The notes under the pieces: generated by a model
What the model saw: only the letters and a program-made list of their open reading frames with translations
Database searches by the model: none
What the model was told of the DNA's origin: nothing
Program-made: the position numbers and the translations under genes
Origin: Candidatus Binataceae bacterium
GTDB taxonomy: Bacteria > Desulfobacterota > Binatia > Binatales > Binataceae
DNA: 64,000 bases
Assembly: GCA_041491005.1 (NCBI GenBank)
Contig: JBGPUE010000002.1
Coordinates: 17,218 to 81,217, forward strand
Direction of reading: 5' to 3'
Shown here: positions 4,196 to 18,832 of the stretch, piece after piece
Numbering within the stretch: the first letter of the stretch is position 1
Layout: the number at the start of each line of letters is the position of its first letter

Positions 4196-4627
4196 ATGCT
4201 GCCGGCCGTGAATCGCATCTCATATCGCGCCAAGCCCGCGGCCTCCAACGCGGTCCTCAATGGCTTGTTCAAGGCGAGCTGGCCGAATCACCGGGCGCGC
4301 GACTTCCAGCCCATGCTGCGCCGTAGCCTCACTCATGTGTGCGCCTACGATGCGCGGCGGCTGGTCGGCTTCGTCAACGTGGCTTGGGATGGCGATAAGC
4401 ATGCGTTCCTGCTCGACACCACCGTGCATCCGTCGACACGTCGGTGCGGCATCGGCAGCGAACTCGTGCGTCGCGCGGCGGAGTTAACGAAGCAGGCCGG
4501 CGCCGAGTGGCTGCATGTGGACTTCGAAGCTGAGTTGACGCATTTCTATCGCGTGTGCGGCTTCCGCAGTACGAGAGCCGGGCTGATCCATTTGTCGGGA
4601 GCCGTCATCCAGCGGCGTGCGAAGTAG
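4196..4627 (+). CDS. GNAT family N-acetyltransferase
   Basis: 143 aa with a GNAT acetyl-CoA-binding motif (LLDTTVHPSTRRCGIGSELVRRAAELTKQAGAEWLHVDF). Confidence 0.7.
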   Translation: MLPAVNRISYRAKPAASNAVLNGLFKASWPNHRARDFQPMLRRSLTHVCAYDARRLVGFVNVAWDGDKHAFLLDTTVHPSTRRCGIGSELVRRAAELTKQAGAEWLHVDFEAELTHFYRVCGFRSTRAGLIHLSGAVIQRRAK

Positions 4628-5228
4628 TCGCTTGAGGCTGCCTCGCGATTTCTATGCGCGGCCAGTCCTGATCGTCGCGCGCGAGTGCATCGGCAAGGTT
4701 CTGGTTCATCGCACGCCCGAGGGTGAGGCGGCGGGGCGGATCGTCGAAGCCGAGGCCTATCGCGGCCCGCTGGATCGCGCCGCGCATAGCTGGCGCGGAT
4801 TGACGAAACGGACCGCAGCGATGTTCGGCCCGCCGGGATACGCCTACATTTACCTGCTCTATGGAACGAGCTGGGCCTTGAATCTGGTCGCCGCATCGGA
4901 AGGCGAGCCGCATGCGGTGTTGATTCGGGCACTGGAGCCGCTGCGCGGACTGGAATTGATGGCGCGGCGTCGAAGCAGGTTTGCCGATTCGCGCGATCTG
5001 ACAAATGGTCCGGGCAAGCTGACTCAAGCCCTCGCGATCACTGGCGCTGACTACGGCCGCGACTTATGCGGGGAGGAACTTTTCCTCGAAGAGCCGGAGC
5101 GTCCGGTCGGGAGGATAGGACGCTCGATGCGCATCAACGTGGAATCCGCCGGCCGCCCGTGGAATGAGAAGCCGTGGCGCTTCTACGAGCGCGCCAATCG
5201 ATACGTGTCGGTCCGCCCCCGCGATTGA
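4617..5228 (+). CDS. mpg: DNA-3-methyladenine glycosylase (Mpg/AAG family)
   Basis: 203 aa. N-terminus LPRDFYARPVLIVARECIGKVLVH and GPPGYAYIYLLYG are typical of Mpg. Its last 102 bp are repeated at 9538..9639. Confidence 0.8.
   Translation: MRSSRLRLPRDFYARPVLIVARECIGKVLVHRTPEGEAAGRIVEAEAYRGPLDRAAHSWRGLTKRTAAMFGPPGYAYIYLLYGTSWALNLVAASEGEPHAVLIRALEPLRGLELMARRRSRFADSRDLTNGPGKLTQALAITGADYGRDLCGEELFLEEPERPVGRIGRSMRINVESAGRPWNEKPWRFYERANRYVSVRPRD
5127..5228 (+). repeat. Direct repeat copy 1 (3' end of mpg), ~88% identical to 9538..9639
   Basis: atgcgcatcaacgtggaatccgccggccg...cgcgattga is found twice, encoding ...RINVESAGRPWNEKPWRFYERANRYVSVRPRD* here and ...RINVESAGRLWNEKPLRFYERANRYVSLHPRD* downstream. 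Confidence 0.9.
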
Positions 5229-5383: not shown

Positions 5384-8300
5384 ATGGCGGCGAAGCCGGA
5401 AGTTCGAAGGGATATGACTGGTAACTCCACCGGAAAGGCAAGGATTCTCGCGGCGATTGGACTTACTATCGCCGCTTTGCAAATCGGTGGTTGCACCTCC
5501 AGCGACGAGCCGCAAACGAATACTGGCAATAGCGCGATCGCCGGTCTGTGTTCGGCCGCCTTCCAGCCAGCGGCGAGAGTCACGTCGGGACGTTCTCTCT
5601 TGGGAGTAAGGGGTGCCGCCGAGATTGTCGCGCCGGTTCCGCTTTCAGGATGTTCCAAGGACGCGAACAACAATGTGACGATCGGCTCCGGCGGTTGCGG
5701 GCCCAACGTCTACGTCGACCAGTCGTTCACCGGAAGCCAAAAATTGGGAAAGATAACCATCGCATCCGACGGCGGACTGGCTTTCCTCCACGATGGATCC
5801 TTCGACCTCGAAACGACCGGTATCGAAGTCAATGGCCTGCTATCGGTTGGGACTTCGACGTGCTCGGTCGGAAACGACAGCATCAACGACAAGATCACGA
5901 TCAGGTTTCTCGGGTCGAAGCCAACGTCAGGCACCGATCATAGCAAGGGAATCATCGTCAACAGCGGCGGCATCCTGCGGATGTTCGGCAGGAAGGGAGT
6001 GCCCGTCAATACGAAGCAGGTAGGCATCAGCTGGACGTACCTGGCGGATGCGGCGGGGCCGGCGACGCCCGGCGCGGGCAGCGCGCCAACCGGAACGACC
6101 GTCCTGCAATTGGCCGATCCAGTCGATTGGCAGCCTAACGATTGGATCGTCGTGGGAACCTCGACCTTCAGTCCGTTCGAAAGCGAGTTCGTGCAAATCC
6201 AGACCGTCACGCCCCGTCCCGCAACCACCAACTTGCCGGCGGGAAGCATGATCACCCTCAATCCAATAACGCCGCTGGTGCATTATCACTTCGGCGGACC
6301 CGCTCCCAGTGCAGGCGCGTCGAACCCGAATTGCAAAGACCACGATGACAAGCTGATTCCCGCGTCGTTCTGCGATGGTGCGGACAGGAACTACGGCGTG
6401 GACGAACGCGCCGAGGTCGGGCTTGTCACCCGCAGCGTCAAGCTGACCTCTGATACCTCCAGCAGCGCCCATTGGGGCGGCGAGATCATGGTCATGGCGG
6501 GTTTCAAGGAAGTATCGATCCAGGGGGTCGAAATCGAGAAATTCGGCAAAGACCAACTCGCCAGTTATCCAATCCACTTTCACAAGGCCGGCGCGCTGGT
6601 CAACCCTCCCGACGCGCCGATTGTCACGGTCAACGCGAACAGCGTTCATCACAGCTACAACAAATGCATGACCATTCATTCCACCAGCAACCTGACTATC
6701 CAGAACAACGTCTGTGCGCGGATCGTCGGGCATATCTTCTACGAGGAAATCGGCGACGAAGCTGGCATCAGCTTTCAGAATAACCTGGGCCTCGGCGCGA
6801 TGAGCCACTATTTCGGCTTGGCGCCCAGCGTTCCCCTCAATCCCGTTACCAACAAGCCCAAAGACTTTTGGGAGGGTGACTACCTCGGCAACAACATCGG
6901 TTACGACGGCTTCGGCATCCCCAACACCGATGACCAGACCAATCCGACACATAGCTCCTGCTACACGTCCAACGGGGCGGGTGGACTCGCCTTCGCGAAC
7001 CTGGTGCCCTGCACGGCGACCCAGTACTACGTAGAGCCCGCCAGCGGATTCTGGCTTGTCAACCCGAGCGCCGTGCTGCAGGGCAATTCGATTGGCGGAT
7101 GCCAGGGCGTCGGCGTCGGTTACTGGTATCTTCCACCATCAGACCCGCCGACGCCGGTGACAGTCCCGCCGACGCCTCCGATTTTGCATACCGAGAAGTT
7201 TCAGCCGGTTGGTTTGTTCAAGAACAACCGAGCCCACGCCTGCTACGACGGCATCTTTGGCGAGACCCAATTTGGCGTGAAGTCGGAGCAACTGCAGCCG
7301 CGCGTGGGCGGGGTCAACGCGGGGAAGTCGCTGATCGCCAGGTTTGACGGATTCACCTCGACGCGCAATCGCGACCGCGGCGTCTGGATGAGACCGGTCT
7401 GGTTTCTCTTCGAGAACGCCCGGCTGGCAACCAATCGCGACGATGTTTCGCTCTTGAGCTCAGGCGGAAATGACGGCAACGGCCCCGGCGTATGGGCGAT
7501 GCTCAAAGATTCGGTGCTGGTCGGACTGAGCCGCAACAATGTGGATCGCTTCGGGCCGTGCCCAGCCAACGCGGCACAGAGCTTCGGATGCGTAGACCAC
7601 AATCCGCAAGCAAACGACGAAGTTGAGAGAGGCTATCCCATCGCCCGTTGGAACATGGCGGGCTACTACATCTACGATGGCCCAGTCCGCATGTTTCACG
7701 ACCGCTTCGTCAACTTTAACAAGACCATCGCTCCGAGCTTGACGACGGCTGATCAAACGACGCTTGCGGGCTTCACTAACTATCCAAATGCCAACACCTC
7801 TGGACCATACGAGGGCGACGCCGCATTGGGATGGTTCCAGAACAATCAGAGCGCATATCCTACTGCGACCGTAGCCCGGGAACTGGTCTTCGAAAACGTC
7901 GATCTCCGGCATCAGATCTTCACAGAAAAGGTCAACTTCGGGAACTTCGATGACGGCGACAAGAACACCGCGATCCTTGATGAGGACGGTTCGCTGACCG
8001 GCTTCCAGGCTGTCAACAGCACCGGCGTGCAGGTGCCGACCCTGATTCCGATCTCGCTCAACAATCTTCCGTTCAACGCTTCGTCGAACTCGGTGGATGA
8101 GTGTCACGCCCAAGGCGGACAGGATGGCGCCCTCGAAGGTCGGCCGACTTCGCTGATCTCGCCTGGGAACATGGGAACGCTGGAATTTGGCGCGCTCTTT
8201 CCGGCCCGTGATACCATTCCGATCCCGCCCACGGATTCGACTCAGCTGATGACGTTTGCGAAAGACTCGACTGACTACGGCGCCCATCAGACGATGACCC

Positions 8301-9457
8301 TGCACAGCCGCAACGGCCAAGGCATCTGGGAACCCAAGGTAACCAGTGGCTTTGGCTATACGATCAGCGCGGCCCCGGCGCTCGACAAGAATATTTATCC
8401 AAACACCAGCGGCAAGGCGGGTATTCCGAACCTGGTTGATGTCGGCGTGGGTGACGTCGTGAAGCCCGGCATCAGCAAGGCCAATCCGTTCTACGTTCGT
8501 CTCGGCATCTGCTACACGAATCAGGACGGCAGCCATCCAGCGGCGGGACATTTCACTATCACACGCGGCTACAAGTCATACGGCGGCAATGCCGTAAATC
8601 AGAGCGACGCTGATCTTCAGCTGTTGTTCAACTACCTCGACCAGCGCTTCCAAGGGCAAACCTGCATCAATCTCGACGACGGCAACGCGCGCAATCTGGA
8701 CCCGAACAATCTCGGGAAAGGATGCCCGGCCAATGGCGTCACTGCCAAACCGACGGGAGGATGCCCGGCCGATTCAAGCGCAGGAACGGCCCAAGACAAC
8801 AACCCGGCCTGCATCTACTCGATCCAGTGCACCCAGGGCGATCCGAATTGCCCATGCCCGGGCGGGGGTAGCGCCTGCGGCCGCACGAGCGACGCGAGCA
8901 ATCCGATGCTTCCGATCGATGCCGCCAACACGATGACTCCCGCTGACGACATCAAGGAGTTGACCAATACCGACGGTACTTTCAAGAATCTCAACGCATT
9001 CTACTACGATCAAACCACCGGGATGCTTTTTTTCTACGTCACCCAGGATTCGCCCAATGCGTTTGGAGCGTCACCGCTGGGCAGCTGCAGTAATCCGCCC
9101 AATCCGGCGACCGATGATCCGGCTTGTCCAAATCTCAGTAAGGGGGAGAGTTACTATTCGTGCCCGAAGCAGGGCTGCACTACGTATATCGTGAAGCTCA
9201 ACGATTCGACCTACAATCCAGGACCGTCAAAGTGCCCGAGTACCGATCCGACTGCGATCTACGGCGTCAGCAGCGGCATATATGCTCAGCCTGTACCGCC
9301 GAATCAGAACAAGCTGGTGTATGTCGAGAACATCAGCAACGTCGTCACGCGGGTTCAGCCCGATCCGCAGGTATCAGGGCAGGGCTTCCAACATTCGGTG
9401 GCGGCAGCCAGTCCGGTCTGCCCCAACCCGACGCCGACCGCCACGCCTGGACCGTGA
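5384..9457 (+). CDS. Very large (1357 aa) lipoprotein with a G8-like domain plus parallel beta-helix (CEMIP/TMEM2/PKHD1-like), Pro/Thr linkers and Cys-rich C-terminal modules; putative secreted polysaccharide-active enzyme or adhesin
   Basis: Lipoprotein signal with lipobox (LAAIGLTIAALQIGGC). Residues ~100-210 look G8-like (ITIASDGGLAFLHDG...ITIRFLGSKP...IIVNSGGILRMFG). Beta-helix-type stretches follow (HHSYNKCMTIHSTSNLTIQNNVCARIVGHIFYEE). The C-terminus is Cys-rich (CPANGVTAKPTGGCPADS...CIYSIQCTQGDPNCPCPGGGSAC). GC and codon usage are lower than in flanking genes. Confidence 0.6.
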   Translation: MAAKPEVRRDMTGNSTGKARILAAIGLTIAALQIGGCTSSDEPQTNTGNSAIAGLCSAAFQPAARVTSGRSLLGVRGAAEIVAPVPLSGCSKDANNNVTIGSGGCGPNVYVDQSFTGSQKLGKITIASDGGLAFLHDGSFDLETTGIEVNGLLSVGTSTCSVGNDSINDKITIRFLGSKPTSGTDHSKGIIVNSGGILRMFGRKGVPVNTKQVGISWTYLADAAGPATPGAGSAPTGTTVLQLADPVDWQPNDWIVVGTSTFSPFESEFVQIQTVTPRPATTNLPAGSMITLNPITPLVHYHFGGPAPSAGASNPNCKDHDDKLIPASFCDGADRNYGVDERAEVGLVTRSVKLTSDTSSSAHWGGEIMVMAGFKEVSIQGVEIEKFGKDQLASYPIHFHKAGALVNPPDAPIVTVNANSVHHSYNKCMTIHSTSNLTIQNNVCARIVGHIFYEEIGDEAGISFQNNLGLGAMSHYFGLAPSVPLNPVTNKPKDFWEGDYLGNNIGYDGFGIPNTDDQTNPTHSSCYTSNGAGGLAFANLVPCTATQYYVEPASGFWLVNPSAVLQGNSIGGCQGVGVGYWYLPPSDPPTPVTVPPTPPILHTEKFQPVGLFKNNRAHACYDGIFGETQFGVKSEQLQPRVGGVNAGKSLIARFDGFTSTRNRDRGVWMRPVWFLFENARLATNRDDVSLLSSGGNDGNGPGVWAMLKDSVLVGLSRNNVDRFGPCPANAAQSFGCVDHNPQANDEVERGYPIARWNMAGYYIYDGPVRMFHDRFVNFNKTIAPSLTTADQTTLAGFTNYPNANTSGPYEGDAALGWFQNNQSAYPTATVARELVFENVDLRHQIFTEKVNFGNFDDGDKNTAILDEDGSLTGFQAVNSTGVQVPTLIPISLNNLPFNASSNSVDECHAQGGQDGALEGRPTSLISPGNMGTLEFGALFPARDTIPIPPTDSTQLMTFAKDSTDYGAHQTMTLHSRNGQGIWEPKVTSGFGYTISAAPALDKNIYPNTSGKAGIPNLVDVGVGDVVKPGISKANPFYVRLGICYTNQDGSHPAAGHFTITRGYKSYGGNAVNQSDADLQLLFNYLDQRFQGQTCINLDDGNARNLDPNNLGKGCPANGVTAKPTGGCPADSSAGTAQDNNPACIYSIQCTQGDPNCPCPGGGSACGRTSDASNPMLPIDAANTMTPADDIKELTNTDGTFKNLNAFYYDQTTGMLFFYVTQDSPNAFGASPLGSCSNPPNPATDDPACPNLSKGESYYSCPKQGCTTYIVKLNDSTYNPGPSKCPSTDPTAIYGVSSGIYAQPVPPNQNKLVYVENISNVVTRVQPDPQVSGQGFQHSVAAASPVCPNPTPTATPGP

Positions 9458-9503
9458 TGTCCGCCGGGATTCGAGCAGCGCTTCGCGTCGATTCCTTCCG
9501 TTC

Positions 9504-9531
9504 TGGTGGGCGGTGCAGGGATCGAACCTGC
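9504..9531 (-). repeat. 28-nt partial copy of the tRNA-Val 3' end (att-like remnant)
   Basis: tggtgggcggtgcagggatcgaacctgc is identical to the 3' 28 nt (including CCA) of the tRNA-Val at 10474..10548, in the same orientation, and diverges immediately afterwards. Confidence 0.8.
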
Positions 9532-9537
9532 AACTAC

Positions 9538-9639
9538 ATGCGTATCAACGTGGAATCCGCCGGCCGTCTGTGGAATGAGAAGCCGTTGCGCTTCTACGAA
9601 CGCGCCAATCGCTATGTCTCGCTCCACCCGCGCGATTGA
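9538..9639 (+). pseudogene. Displaced duplicate of the mpg 3' end (direct repeat copy 2); not an intact gene
   Basis: 102 bp ~88% identical to 5127..5228, encoding the last 33 codons of Mpg plus stop. The upstream frame is fused to an unrelated sequence (ORF 9160..9639 is chimeric). Confidence 0.8.
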
Positions 9640-9672
9640 TCGCCTTCTGAATAACGGCTCGAAGCTTCCCGC

Positions 9673-9692
9673 TGGTGGGAGGTGCAGGGGTC
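9673..9692 (-). repeat. Degenerate second partial copy of the tRNA-Val 3' end
   Basis: tggtgggaggtgcaggggtc matches tggtgggcggtgcagggatc at 18 of 20 positions, in the same orientation. Confidence 0.5.
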
Positions 9693-9733
9693 TAAAATGC
9701 GACCGGCCGAATCCCGGCCATCCAGGCGACCGA

Positions 9734-10159
9734 CTAACTCCGGCTGCGGGCCGACTGAAGTGAACCGGCGCGTGCTCGACGACCTCGGATCGTTCGAGGA
9801 CGACGGTTCGGGTGCCCGCCCGTTGCGCCCGCGCCAGCGGCCAGCAATGCCACAAGCTCCTGATTCAGAGAGACGCCGTCCACTGCGGCAAGGCGTGTAA
9901 GGCGTTCATGAAGGGAACGCGGGAGGCGCAGGCGTAGCTGGCCGGAATGCCCTGAAGTCACATCCGTAGGAGGGACAGCGGAGCCGTGGTGGCGCATCGA
10001 GGCGATGATGGCTCGGGCGGCAATTACTGCCTCACGGGTGGCCTCTTCAGGCCGGTGGCCATGGGCTGCGCATCCCGGCAGCGCGGGTACACGGGCGATA
10101 AAGGCATCATCCTCATCGCTCCACTCCACAACGACACGATATCCGAAAGTCTCTGCCAT
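9734..10159 (-). CDS. hicB: HicB family antitoxin (type II toxin-antitoxin)
   Basis: N-terminal HicB/UPF0150 fold (YRVVVEWSDEDDAFIARVPALPGCAAHGHRPEEATREAVIAARAIIASM) plus a C-terminal RHH-like DNA-binding segment (LRLPRSLHERLTRLAAVDGVSLNQELVALL). Overlaps the hicA stop (ATGA). Confidence 0.75.
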   Translation of the reverse strand: MAETFGYRVVVEWSDEDDAFIARVPALPGCAAHGHRPEEATREAVIAARAIIASMRHHGSAVPPTDVTSGHSGQLRLRLPRSLHERLTRLAAVDGVSLNQELVALLAAGAGATGGHPNRRPRTIRGRRARAGSLQSARSRS

Positions 10160-10416
10160 CAGTCTACCTTGAGTTCATAACTTTCGATGAGTCCCAAGAT
10201 TTGCCGGACCTGGTACGGCTTGGCTTTTCCCGATGCGCCCTCTTGAAGGTTGACAAGCGGCAGATCCGGCCGCGACGGATGCCGATAGATGCGGTGCGAC
10301 CCGCGTTTCCGGTCGAGCACATAGCCCAGATGCAACAGAAGTCCGCACAAGTCGCGAAAGCGGATGTTCGCTGGACTGCGTCGCGCCGTCTCGGCAAGCT
10401 CCGCCCATCGCCCCAC
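10159..10416 (-). CDS. hicA: HicA family mRNA interferase toxin (type II toxin-antitoxin)
   Basis: 85 aa in the YcfA/HicA family (RKRGSHRIYRHPSRPDLPLVNLQEGASGKAKPYQVRQILGLIE), sitting upstream of hicB. Confidence 0.8.
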   Translation of the reverse strand: MGRWAELAETARRSPANIRFRDLCGLLLHLGYVLDRKRGSHRIYRHPSRPDLPLVNLQEGASGKAKPYQVRQILGLIESYELKVD

Positions 10417-10473
10417 CAGCGAGACGATACCGCATATGGAACCACGGCACTAGCCCCGGAGCGGCTCGGCTCC

Positions 10474-10548
10474 TGGTGGGCGGTGCAGGGATCGAACCTG
10501 CGACCCTCGGTGTGTAAGACCGATGCTCTACCGCTGAGCTAACCGCCC
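10474..10548 (-). tRNA. tRNA-Val (anticodon UAC)
   Basis: The reverse complement is GGGCGGTTAGCTCAGCGGTAGAGCATCGGTCTTACACACCGAGGGTCGCAGGTTCGATCCCTGCACCGCCCACCA. It forms a canonical cloverleaf (7-bp acceptor, D and T arms) with a CTTACAC anticodon loop and an encoded CCA, 75 nt in total. Confidence 0.9.
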
Positions 10549-17566: not shown

Positions 17567-18004
17567 CTATTTCGAGGTAACAGGGGGCGTTTGAACGGCA
17601 GGCGGGGTTTGAACGGCTGGTGGGGTTTGAACGGCTGGTGGGGTTTGAACGGCTGGTGGGGTTTGAGCGGCCTTCGCGGTGTTCACCACGTCTCCAACAA
17701 CCCGGATGCATTGCCGGTTGTACAAAATTGTAAGGAGCATGTCGTTGTAGGCGGTGACATTAGTCATCATGTCGCCATCTGGAACCTGGGCTACGGCTCG
17801 ATCTACCGCATCTTGCAGATTCGGATTTAGCGTTCCTATCGGGATAAAGAGCACCATATTGACGCAGTCCTCTCCTGTTACTCCCTGCTGCAAGGGCGGA
17901 TACGTGTAACCGAGATTCTTGGTGGACGCCATCGTGAAACTACCCAAGCGAAGAGAACAACCTCCGACTACGAGAGTCAAAACCACCAGGCAGAGCTGTT
18001 TCAT
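17567..18004 (-). CDS. Lipoprotein of unknown function carrying a C-terminal (AVQTPP)x5 tandem repeat
   Basis: Lipobox LVVGGC. A conserved core (GEDC...NPNLQDAVDRAVAQVPDGDMM...C.RVVGDVV) is shared with the adjacent paralog. The C-terminal repeats are encoded by 18-bp tandem units. Confidence 0.6.
   Translation of the reverse strand: MKQLCLVVLTLVVGGCSLRLGSFTMASTKNLGYTYPPLQQGVTGEDCVNMVLFIPIGTLNPNLQDAVDRAVAQVPDGDMMTNVTAYNDMLLTILYNRQCIRVVGDVVNTAKAAQTPPAVQTPPAVQTPPAVQTPPAVQTPPVTSK
17589..17675 (-). repeat. Coding tandem repeat of ~5 x 18 bp (ggggtttgaacggctggt)
   Basis: Directly visible as a tandem repeat and in frame within the lipoprotein gene (AVQTPP units). It is not a CRISPR: units are contiguous with no spacers. 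Confidence 0.85.
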
Positions 18005-18650: not shown

Positions 18651-18783
18651 TGTCATTCTGAGCGGAGCGAAGGCATCGCCGGAGCGAAGTCGAAGAATCT
18701 ACGCGAAGCGATTTTCTGCCTGTCTGCGAACGGGTTCCAGGCAAATCGCTCCGCGTAGATCCTTCGCTGCGCTCAGGATGACA
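18651..18783. mobile_element. MITE/REP-like palindromic element (~133 bp) with imperfect ~40-bp terminal inverted repeats
   Basis: Left arm tgtcattctgagcggagcgaagg...gaagaatctacgcgaagcgatttt. Right arm aaatcgctccgcgtagatccttcgctgcgctcaggatgaca, which is its reverse complement apart from one ~21-bp indel. The same core recurs at 26256..26361 and 53808..53906. Confidence 0.6.
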
Positions 18784-18832
18784 AGAGAGCCGGGTCGCGT
18801 AGAGTTCATCAAGTTAATTGCGGGACGCCACG

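What the first reader, a model, noticed from the sequence alone, without database searches (positions are those of the whole stretch)
9504..10548. Decayed tRNA-Val-associated islet: two partial tRNA 3'-end copies plus a hicAB toxin-antitoxin
tRNA-Val(UAC) at 10474..10548 (minus strand) is followed, on its 3' side, by hicA-hicB and then by two same-orientation fragments of its own 3' end: an exact 28-nt copy including CCA at 9504..9531, and an 18/20 match at 9673..9692. Repeated tRNA 3'-end fragments are the footprints left by successive integrase-mediated insertions at a tRNA gene, and TA pairs are typically the last survivors of eroded islands. The exact 28-nt fragment sits immediately next to the displaced mpg 3' end copy (9538..9639), so the mpg-associated island and the tRNA-associated remnants are physically interleaved. 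This suggests nested or sequential integrations at one hotspot. No integrase is present anywhere in the window.
Basis: seen in the sequence. Interest (0 to 1): 0.6.

Follow-up and report, generated by a model that had tools for sequence, protein, structure and literature searches.

The report
Decayed tRNA-Val integration hotspot with hicAB
In an uncultured soil bacterium (Candidatus Binataceae), a valine tRNA gene has been a repeated landing site for mobile DNA, and what remains is a 0.9-kb integrase-less remnant with a toxin-antitoxin pair and two tRNA-end scars; this is an ordinary kind of genome scar.

Summary
tRNA-Val(UAC) lies at 10474..10548 (-). An exact 28-nt copy of its 3' end lies at 9504..9531 and a decayed copy at 9673..9704. 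An intact hicA-hicB pair lies between them, and a 102-nt copy of the mpg 3' end lies at 9538..9639.

The exact copy spans precisely T-stem, T-loop, T-stem, acceptor strand, discriminator and CCA. That is the commonest tyrosine-integrase att block.

Comparative evidence:
- A sibling strain (about 97% identical) carries a 4-kb island with a frameshifted integrase at the same tRNA junction.
- A sister lineage shows the empty site: mpg, a 191-nt spacer, then tRNA-Val, with neither hicAB nor the large 1357-aa G8/CEMIP gene.
- HicB relatives occur on a tRNA-integrated ICE/IME, and next to a tRNA-Val scar in another genome.

The mpg fragment is therefore not evidence of a separate mpg-targeting island. 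It is a relic copy of the native mpg/tRNA-Val junction.

The order of decay is inner scar 5/28, mpg relic about 7%, outer scar 0/28. This contradicts simple outward-is-older accretion.

Best reading: a 942-bp att-flanked, integrase-less (CIME-like) islet that carries hicAB plus a captured junction.

This is a known kind of feature in a little-studied phylum. Interest is low to moderate.

The parts
10474..10548 (-). tRNA-Val(UAC), intact. It is the integration target. Its last 28 nt (10474..10501, called T3c here) form the proximal att repeat.
   Evidence: ARAGORN; Rfam RF00005 at 73.6 bits; exact repeat.
9504..9531 (-). T3a: exact 28-nt copy of the tRNA 3' end, made of T-stem 5 + T-loop 7 + T-stem 5 + acceptor strand 7 + discriminator + CCA. 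It is the distal att repeat of the 942-bp islet. The C at 9503 is also shared.
   Evidence: The boundary coincides exactly with the start of the T-stem, read from the cloverleaf of the sequence.
9478..9499 (.). Fragment of a palindromic MITE-like repeat just outside T3a. It matches 21/23 the repeat that sits in the mpg/tRNA-Val spacer of the empty-site lineage L178.
   Evidence: none of 300 shuffles reached the observed score.
9532..9537 (.). 6-nt junction AACTAC between T3a and the mpg relic. It matches neither the tRNA nor mpg.
   Evidence: (family D4).
9538..9639 (+). A2: relic copy of the last 33 codons plus stop of mpg. It is 91/102 identical to the functional end at 5127..5228. It carries substitutions of an invariant Trp and of a Val conserved in all but one relative.
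9640..9672 (.). Short spacer between the relic mpg stop and the decayed tRNA fragment. It is the presumed remnant of an mpg/tRNA-Val intergenic region.
   Evidence: It shows no significant similarity to the L178 spacer.
9673..9704 (-). T3b: decayed copy of the tRNA-Val 3' end. 23/28 positions match in the T-arm-to-CCA block, and 4 further matching bases lie in the variable loop. It is an older att scar.
   Evidence: (family D5).
9734..10159 (-). hicB antitoxin, 141 aa: HicB-like N-terminal domain plus a HicB/Arc-like DNA-binding C-terminus.
   Evidence: Pfam PF15919 and PF05534; homologues.
10159..10416 (-). hicA toxin, 85 aa, GTG start, GSH motif present. It starts 57 nt after the tRNA CCA end, on the same strand as the tRNA.
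   Evidence: Pfam PF07927; JGI gene call in L084.
5127..5228 (+). A1: the functional 3' end of mpg (gene 4617..5228), partner of the relic A2.
5384..9457 (+). 1357-aa G8/CEMIP beta-helix protein gene, of low GC. It lies between mpg and the outer tRNA scar and is absent from the empty-site lineage.

Best explanation
The 3' end of tRNA-Val(UAC) is a tyrosine-integrase integration hotspot in this Candidatus Binataceae lineage.

What is there now. Window 9532..10473 is a 942-bp integrase-less islet. It is flanked by a perfect 28/29-bp direct repeat of the tRNA's T-arm-to-CCA block: T3a distal, and the tRNA's own end proximal. This makes it a CIME-like decayed island.

Its cargo has two parts:
- an apparently intact hicA-hicB type II toxin-antitoxin pair;
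- a passenger relic of a chromosomal junction, consisting of the last 102 nt of mpg (A2), a 32-nt spacer and an older, decayed tRNA-Val 3' scar (T3b).

Proposed history (inferred).
1. In this clade mpg natively converged on tRNA-Val.
2. A hicAB-bearing element integrated at the tRNA and displaced T3b.
3. That element later left a related chromosome imprecisely, taking T3b, the spacer and the mpg end with it.
4. It re-integrated by site-specific recombination into the tRNA-Val of a chromosome that already carried the horizontally acquired G8/CEMIP gene between mpg and the tRNA. This displaced T3a.
5. The integrase and other genes were lost. hicAB persisted, plausibly through addiction.

Status of the steps. 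Shown: the repeats and their exact anatomy, the empty site, the sibling integrase island at the same junction, the decay ordering, and the mobility of the hicAB family. Inferred: the capture-and-reintegration step, the order of events, and the activity of hicAB.
For: 1. Repeats far beyond chance.
2. The T3a block is exactly T-stem to CCA, 28 nt. In Islander the T-stem-region attP class is the largest (1836 of 3919 islands), and 3760 of 3919 islands have 3' tDNA fragments (PMC4383910).
3. The sibling strain contigs L085, L088 and L089 are 96-97.4% identical across lon-HU-tRNA. They diverge from the window 2 nt after CCA into a roughly 4-kb island. That island has a Phage_integrase gene (split by a frameshift), an HTH_17 protein and an AAA_25 protein.
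4. The empty site in L178: GNAT, mpg, a 191-nt spacer, tRNA-Val, HU, with no hicAB and no G8/CEMIP gene.
5. The outer flank of T3a matches the repeat in the L178 spacer 21/23, as expected for a native tRNA trailer.
6. Decay ordering: T3b 5/28, A2 with 7 lineage-specific changes in 102 nt (3 synonymous, 4 non-synonymous; the non-synonymous ones replace an invariant Trp and a Val conserved in all but one relative), and T3a 0/28.
7. A 79%-identical HicB sits on a tRNA-Gly-integrated ICE/IME with integrase, relaxase and T4CP. In L182, hicAB (75% nt identity) lies 117 nt after a degenerate tRNA-Val 3' fragment, 1.5 kb from an intact tRNA-Val.
8. The G8/CEMIP gene has low GC and rare, patchily distributed homologues.
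9. The arrangement is reproduced in independent assemblies.
Against: - There is no integrase in the islet or the window, so mobility cannot be shown.
- No genome was found with the postulated donor configuration (full mpg, short spacer, T3b, hicAB, tRNA).
- No genome was found with the postulated recipient configuration (G8/CEMIP gene directly followed by an intact tRNA-Val).
- The 6-nt junction AACTAC is unexplained.
- The 32-nt spacer has no detectable similarity to the L178 spacer.
- The statistics rest on short sequences. T3a versus T3b gives p=0.026 one-sided. T3a versus A2 is not significant by my own estimate (no test was run), so T3a and A2 could be the same age, as the illegitimate-recombination rival requires.
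- The sibling island's integrase is frameshifted and its distal att site is deleted, so it gives no second example of a complete attL/attR pair.
Confidence: 0.6

Rival explanations
1. No integrase was involved in the T3a|A2 junction. A single illegitimate join fused a chromosome of type 'mpg, G8/CEMIP gene, tRNA-Val', broken in the tRNA, to one of type 'mpg, spacer, T3b, hicAB, tRNA-Val', broken in mpg. The join could have arisen by homology-facilitated illegitimate recombination after DNA uptake, or by unequal exchange between sister chromosomes. The result is formally a tandem duplication of the interval from the mpg 3' end to the tRNA 3' end.
For: - The structure is exactly two tandem copies of 'mpg end, spacer, tRNA end'.
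- The 6-nt filler AACTAC is typical of illegitimate joins.
- T3a (0/28) and A2 (7/102) are statistically compatible with equal age by my own estimate (no test was run).
- An 8-nt near-identity exists between GACGCTCG, just left of A1 in mpg, and GACCCTCG, just right of the 28-mer in the tRNA.
Against: - The break in the tRNA falls exactly at the first base of the T-stem. That is the canonical att boundary and would be a coincidence of about 1 in 20 to 1 in 75.
- A microhomology-mediated join should leave GACSCTCG at the junction, but AACTAC is found.
- The same tRNA is demonstrably used by an integrase island in the sibling strain.
Confidence: 0.2
2. The 4.4-kb segment 5127..9537 is the remnant of an element that integrates into the 3' end of mpg and carries a replacement 3' end, as phage 21 and e14 do at icd. 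The segment comprises A1, the G8/CEMIP gene, the repeat fragment, T3a and AACTAC. T3a would be a passenger scar in that element.
For: - A 102-nt direct repeat of the ORF end flanks the insert.
- The upstream copy restores the ORF.
- The repeat ends 1 nt after the stop codon.
- Differences on the functional lineage are synonymous.
- The insert has low GC and is absent from L178.
Against: - There is no integrase in the segment.
- A1 groups with the resident lineage (99/102 identity to L177) rather than looking element-borne.
- The model requires an unexplained perfect tRNA att block and a native-looking tRNA trailer at the element's end.
- mpg is not a recurrent insertion site in 57 other Binataceae loci.
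Confidence: 0.1
3. Simple tandem accretion at the tRNA. Each new island inserts next to the tRNA body, so the scars are ordered oldest outermost: T3a, then T3b.
For: - Two same-orientation 3' fragments lie at increasing distance from the tRNA.
- Tandem arrays are known; Islander lists 125.
Against: - The outer scar is perfect and the inner one is decayed (0/28 versus 5/28, one-sided p=0.026).
- The segment between the two scars is only 141 nt and consists of a chromosomal mpg fragment, not island DNA.
- Neither unit has an integrase.
Confidence: 0.07
4. The fragments are chance matches, or the remains of formerly complete paralogous tRNA-Val genes truncated by deletion.
For: HU is followed by tRNA arrays (Val-Asp) in some distant relatives.
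Against: - Chance expectation is 0 for the 28-mer and 0.02 for the 20-mer.
- Only 3' parts are present, both in the tRNA's orientation, and one ends exactly at the T-stem.
- No cloverleaf or Rfam hit surrounds either fragment.
Confidence: 0.03

Closest known systems
Genomic islands in tRNA genes, as catalogued by Islander (T-stem-region att class)
   Same: An intact tDNA plus same-orientation displaced 3' fragments mark the island ends. The identity block runs from the T-stem to CCA. The site is used by a tyrosine-integrase island in a sibling strain (PMC4383910).
   Different: There is no integrase in the interval. The element is only 0.94 kb. It contains a chromosomal fragment and an older scar as cargo.
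[quoted passage not shown]
   Same: It is flanked by perfect att-type repeats and lacks recombination and transfer genes. It co-occurs in the population with an integrase-bearing element that uses the same site, which is the setting in which accretion and cis-mobilisation occur.
   Different: Mobilisation is untested. No accreted tandem of the islet and an integrase island was observed. The known integrase partner is itself frameshifted.
HicAB type II toxin-antitoxin modules on mobile elements
   Same: hicA lies upstream of hicB with a 1-nt overlap, and both Pfam domains are present. Close homologues lie on a tRNA-Gly-integrated ICE/IME and in scattered chromosomal sites.
   Different: Nothing distinctive was found. 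Activity and any stabilising role are not tested.
Aberrant excision with capture of flanking host DNA (lambda gal/bio-type specialised transduction; 'gene capture' by ICE/CIME accretion). This comparison rests on my own knowledge and on the reference list.
   Same: An att-flanked unit carries a piece of the chromosome that natively adjoins the att site, namely the mpg end plus an old scar.
   Different: The capture is inferred only from anatomy. The junction AACTAC is not explained by a secondary att site in mpg.
Phage 21 / e14 integration into icd with a replacement 3' end (own knowledge)
   Same: A duplicated ORF 3' end flanks inserted DNA, and the upstream copy keeps the gene intact.
   Different: There is no integrase. 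The functional copy looks resident rather than element-borne. The empty-site lineage shows that the mpg end natively abuts the tRNA.

Membership tests
tRNA-gene genomic island (Islander criteria) | Intact tDNA target | tested here: met
   tRNA-Val(tac) at 10474..10548.
tRNA-gene genomic island (Islander criteria) | Displaced 3' fragment of the same tDNA, in the same orientation, in the same replicon | tested here: met
   9504..9531 is exact over 28 nt. 9673..9704 matches at 27/32 positions.
tRNA-gene genomic island (Islander criteria) | Fragment boundary at a canonical sublocation (T-stem region or anticodon loop) | tested here: met
   T3a starts at the first T-stem base. The boundary of T3b lies in the variable loop and is less clear.
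tRNA-gene genomic island (Islander criteria) | Integrase gene inside the interval | tested here: not met
   Only hicA and hicB lie in 9532..10473. tblastn found no integrase-like hit in the window.
tRNA-gene genomic island (Islander criteria) | Interval absent from related genomes (empty site) | tested here: met
   L178 has mpg, a 191-nt spacer, tRNA-Val and HU, without hicAB. L085-type strains have a different island at the same junction.
CIME (cis-mobilizable element) | attL and attR retained; integration and transfer genes lost | tested here: met
   Perfect 28/29-bp repeats flank 942 bp that contain no recombinase or transfer gene.
CIME (cis-mobilizable element) | Derived from an ICE or IME by deletion | tested here: inconclusive
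   A HicB homologue (79% identity) lies on a tRNA-Gly ICE/IME. No nucleotide-level parent element was found.
CIME (cis-mobilizable element) | Mobilisable in cis or trans by an element with the same att specificity | not testable with these tools
   This needs excision or transfer assays, or read-level detection of circular junctions.
HicAB type II toxin-antitoxin | HicA_toxin domain protein encoded upstream of, and overlapping, a HicB antitoxin with a DNA-binding C-terminus | tested here: met
   PF07927 (E=7e-10); PF05534 and PF15919, plus an Arc-like match; 1-nt overlap.
HicAB type II toxin-antitoxin | Toxicity of HicA (mRNA interferase) and its neutralisation by HicB | not testable with these tools
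   Only sequence integrity and the GSH motif were seen.
Tandem island array | Each member has its own integrase and its own tDNA fragment | tested here: not met
   There are two fragments but no integrase. The segment between the fragments is 141 nt of chromosomal relic.
ORF-3'-end-replacing integrative element (phage 21 / e14 at icd type) | Duplicated ORF 3' end flanking the insert, with the ORF restored | tested here: met
   5127..5228 versus 9538..9639, 91/102 identical, and the mpg ORF is intact.
ORF-3'-end-replacing integrative element (phage 21 / e14 at icd type) | Integrase in the insert, and recurrence of the same target in relatives | tested here: not met
   The insert holds only the G8/CEMIP gene. 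None of 57 other Binataceae mpg loci shows such an insert.

The most novel reading that the evidence does not exclude
The 942-bp unit is a still-mobilisable, integrase-less mini-island (CIME) of the uncultured phylum Binatota. It was formed by aberrant excision that captured the adjoining chromosomal junction (the mpg end plus an old att scar). It can be moved in cis or trans by the integrase island family seen at the same tRNA-Val in sibling strains. This would be a natural case of specialised-transduction-like gene capture, with hicAB as the only selfish cargo.
Probability: 0.2. Interest if true: 0.4.

Novelty: new member of a known kind. Interest (0 to 1): 0.27.

Why it matters
The finding documents a site-specific integration hotspot in Candidatus Binataceae, an uncultured soil lineage. 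I did not search for, and am not aware of, earlier descriptions of mobile elements in this group. The hotspot shows population-level polymorphism: an empty site, a hicAB islet and an integrase island.

It gives a worked example in which the relative decay of scars shows that the order of att scars along the chromosome is not their order of age.

It also flags the 28-bp T-arm-to-CCA core of tRNA-Val as a candidate attB for integrases from this phylum.

Beyond that it is ordinary genome archaeology. It reveals no new mechanism.

Tried and rejected
1. mpg-based synteny in GTDB species representatives. The 57 Binataceae loci share only mpg with the window, so they gave no help on the tRNA neighbourhood.
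2. HU-based scan of JGI metagenome contigs. It returned only distant relatives. L097 has ordinary chromosomal genes after tRNA-Val.
3. My first inference, that the 7 synonymous: 4 non-synonymous split between A1 and A2 (binomial p=0.004) means a foreign allele. I withdrew it after polarising with L178. The synonymous excess comes from the functional branch, and the A2-specific changes (3 synonymous, 4 non-synonymous) fit neutral decay.
4. Microhomology-mediated duplication via GACGCTCG/GACCCTCG. The junction is AACTAC, not the expected hybrid.
5. A secondary att site in mpg (GGATAGGAC versus GGATCGAAC). The predicted junction does not match.
6. The cluster mate of the G8/CEMIP protein, P0282. 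It proved to be the window's own protein with a later start, and the look-up returned no context.
7. The AAA_25 protein of the L085 island against IMG/VR. No relatives were found.
8. The 28-mer in IMG/VR. It found tRNA-Val(cac) genes, mostly with integrase-like matches close by, and one partial fragment. This is supportive background only.
9. Other HicB contexts (L180, L191, L192). These are stand-alone modules with no tRNA nearby.
Full report
**Observation**

The window carries a single tRNA gene, tRNA-Val(tac), at 10474..10548 on the minus strand (Rfam 73.6 bits). Its last 28 nt on the plus strand read TGGTGGGCGGTGCAGGGATCGAACCTGC. This sequence recurs exactly at 9504..9531, and no such match occurred in 100 shuffles.

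A third, degenerate copy lies at 9673..9692 (18/20 identical; 0.02 matches expected by chance). Aligned in register, it extends to 9704. It matches 23/28 positions in the block and four more bases in the variable loop. I call the three copies T3c (the tRNA's own end), T3a and T3b. All three are preceded by the same C.

Between T3b and the tRNA lie hicB (9734..10159) and hicA (10159..10416). Both are confirmed by Pfam and they overlap by one base.

The last 102 nt of mpg (gene 4617..5228, Pur_DNA_glyco) recur at 9538..9639 with 91/102 identity. The homology stops one base after the stop codon. I call the functional end A1 and the copy A2.

Independent assemblies from several samples reproduce the whole arrangement (L084, L087, L091-L094).

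**Who it is**

The closest mpg, lon and HU relatives are Candidatus Binataceae MAGs.

**Anatomy of the exact scar**

Read on the tRNA strand, the 28 nt are GCAGG-TTCGATC-CCTGC-ACCGCCC-A-CCA. These are the T-stem, T-loop, T-stem, acceptor 3' strand, discriminator and CCA. T3a therefore begins at the very first base of the T-stem.

This is the commonest class of attP/attB identity block for tRNA-integrating tyrosine integrases. In Islander, 1836 of 3919 islands have a T-stem-region attP, and 3760 have 3' fragments (PMC4383910).

**The same site in relatives**

An exact-protein look-up with HU returned contigs of a sibling strain (L085, L088, L089). These are 96-97.4% identical to the window through lon, HU and the tRNA. 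They diverge two bases after CCA into a roughly 4-kb island. The island encodes:
- a tyrosine integrase, split by a frameshift into parts matching Pfam profile positions 2-85 and 119-171;
- an HTH_17 protein;
- an AAA_25 protein.

The far end of this island abuts the interior of the G8/CEMIP gene (window 7530 to 7214, 97.8% identical). There is no distal tRNA fragment. That strain has therefore lost the equivalent of window 7531..10471.

A protein search with mpg then gave a sister lineage, L178 (mpg 88% aa, 84% nt). It shows the empty site: GNAT, mpg, a 191-nt spacer, tRNA-Val (same 28-mer) and HU. It has neither hicAB nor the G8/CEMIP gene. A 94%-identical lineage (L177) shares GNAT, mpg and the G8/CEMIP gene.

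In 57 other Binataceae species, mpg sits elsewhere, in iPGM / ComF-like / mpg contexts.

**Consequence for the mpg fragment**

In this clade mpg natively converges on tRNA-Val. The block A2, 32-nt spacer and T3b is therefore a relic copy of that native junction. It is not the footprint of a separate mpg-targeting island.

The whole locus is formally two tandem copies of 'mpg end, spacer, tRNA end':
- copy 1 is A1, the G8/CEMIP gene, a repeat fragment and T3a;
- copy 2 is A2, the spacer and T3b.

These are followed by hicAB and the tRNA.

The 22 nt just outside T3a (9478..9499) match 21/23 the palindromic MITE-like repeat in the L178 spacer. None of 300 shuffles reached the observed score. This is as expected if T3a plus its flank is a native tRNA trailer.

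**Ages**

I polarised the A1/A2 differences with L178 and L177.
- A2 has 7 changes of its own, 3 synonymous and 4 non-synonymous. The non-synonymous changes replace a Trp that is invariant and a Val conserved in all but one of 57 relatives.
- The functional lineage has 2-4 changes, all synonymous.

A2 is therefore a non-functional relic. It separated before the split between the window lineage and L177.

T3b has 5/28 mismatches and T3a has 0/28 (Fisher one-sided p=0.026). The outer scar is thus younger than the inner one. This contradicts simple accretion next to the tRNA, in which the outermost scar would be the oldest.

**Cargo**

The HicB family is mobile.
- A 79%-identical homologue lies in a tRNA-Gly(gcc)-integrated element with an integrase, HTH_17, a MobA/L relaxase, a TraG-like T4CP and TraD (L183-L185).
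- Other homologues are stand-alone in unrelated chromosomal contexts.
- In L182, hicAB (75% nt identity to the window) lies 117 nt after a degenerate tRNA-Val 3' fragment (4/28 mismatches to that genome's own tRNA). That fragment is separated from an intact tRNA-Val by a 1.5-kb insert.

The association 'tRNA-Val 3' end followed directly by hicAB' therefore recurs.

The G8/CEMIP gene has low GC (0.55-0.60, against 0.64 in the flanks). Its homologues are few and patchily distributed, with at most 62% identity. It is absent from L178. It is therefore horizontally acquired cargo at the same hotspot, by a route I could not determine.

**Best explanation (confidence 0.6)**

The 942 bp between T3a and the tRNA end form an att-flanked, integrase-less islet. 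It fits the definition of a CIME, a decayed element that retains attL and attR (PMC5704250).

The anatomy and the age ordering (T3b oldest, then A2, then T3a) are most simply produced as follows.
1. A hicAB element first integrated at tRNA-Val in an mpg/tRNA-Val chromosome, displacing T3b.
2. It excised imprecisely, taking T3b, the spacer and the mpg end.
3. It re-integrated through the 28-bp core into a chromosome that already had the G8/CEMIP gene, displacing T3a.
4. The integrase was later lost, and hicAB persisted.

The repeats, the empty site, the sibling island, the decay ordering and the mobility of the hicAB family are shown. The capture and re-integration steps are inferred.

**Rivals**

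- An integrase-free illegitimate join or unequal exchange between two chromosome types (0.2). This fits the 6-nt filler AACTAC and the equal-age possibility for T3a and A2. It requires the break to fall exactly at the T-stem by coincidence.
- An mpg-3'-end-replacing element of the phage 21/icd kind carrying the G8/CEMIP gene (0.1). There is no integrase, A1 looks resident, and the site is not recurrent.
- Simple sequential accretion (0.07). The decay order contradicts it.
- Chance, or decayed paralogous tRNAs (0.03).

**Verdict**

This is a known kind of feature: a decayed tRNA integration hotspot with a surviving toxin-antitoxin pair. It is documented here in a little-studied phylum, with a modest curiosity in the captured junction and the inverted age order of the scars. 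Interest is 0.27. Novelty: a new member of a known kind.

Noticed in passing
window 5384..9457 (+): 1357-aa predicted secreted protein with a G8 domain and a CEMIP-type beta-helix. Its GC is 0.55-0.60 against 0.64 in the flanks. Its C-terminal 450 aa have only 39 homologues at E<=1e-20, with at most 62% identity, in scattered taxa (Casimicrobiaceae, Nitrospira, Herbaspirillum). It is absent from the sister lineage L178.
   Followed up: partly
window 18693..18785 (-); fragment at 9478..9499; L178 814..937: A palindromic MITE-like repeat of about 125 nt with ends TGTCATCCTGAGCG...CGCTCAGAATGACA. One copy lies in the mpg/tRNA-Val spacer of L178. A 22-nt fragment lies next to the outer tRNA scar in the window.
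   Followed up: partly
window 17583..17672: Five tandem copies of an 18-nt unit (GGNGGGGTTTGAACGGCT), reported as repeat family D2.
   Followed up: no
L085 3752..7797: The sibling-strain island at the same tRNA-Val has a frameshifted tyrosine integrase, with the same gene calls in contigs from two samples (L085 and L088). It has no distal att copy, and its far end is fused to the interior of the G8/CEMIP gene, which is truncated there.
   Followed up: partly
L092 1..75 (Logan SRR35969133_148816): 35 nt of unknown sequence are followed by an internal tRNA-Val fragment. The fragment runs from the D-arm to the first 2 nt of the T-stem, with one mismatch in the anticodon loop. It is fused directly to the middle of hicA (window 10249). 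This is either a rearranged variant of the hotspot or an assembly chimera.
   Followed up: no
window 4196..5228; L004-L060, L175: In this clade mpg sits after a GNAT gene next to tRNA-Val. In 57 other Binataceae species it lies in a different context, often about 0.8 kb after tRNA-Gly(ccc) (iPGM / ComF-like / mpg was seen in L175). mpg has therefore been relocated to the hotspot region in this clade.
   Followed up: partly
L085 3752..3830; L095 3771..3840; L097 4363..4440; L182 6132..6150: The sequences after tRNA-Val in four different genomes share GAAATCA 2-3 nt after CCA. Three of them also have GTGCC(A/C)AAT-like direct repeats 45-60 nt downstream. This may be a conserved arm of one island family, or a conserved tRNA trailer.
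   Followed up: no
window 5119..5126 and 10502..10509: GACGCTCG lies immediately left of the functional mpg repeat. GACCCTCG lies immediately right of the 28-mer inside the tRNA. The two match at 7 of 8 positions, yet the actual junction between the outer scar and the mpg relic reads AACTAC. This is unexplained.
   Followed up: partly
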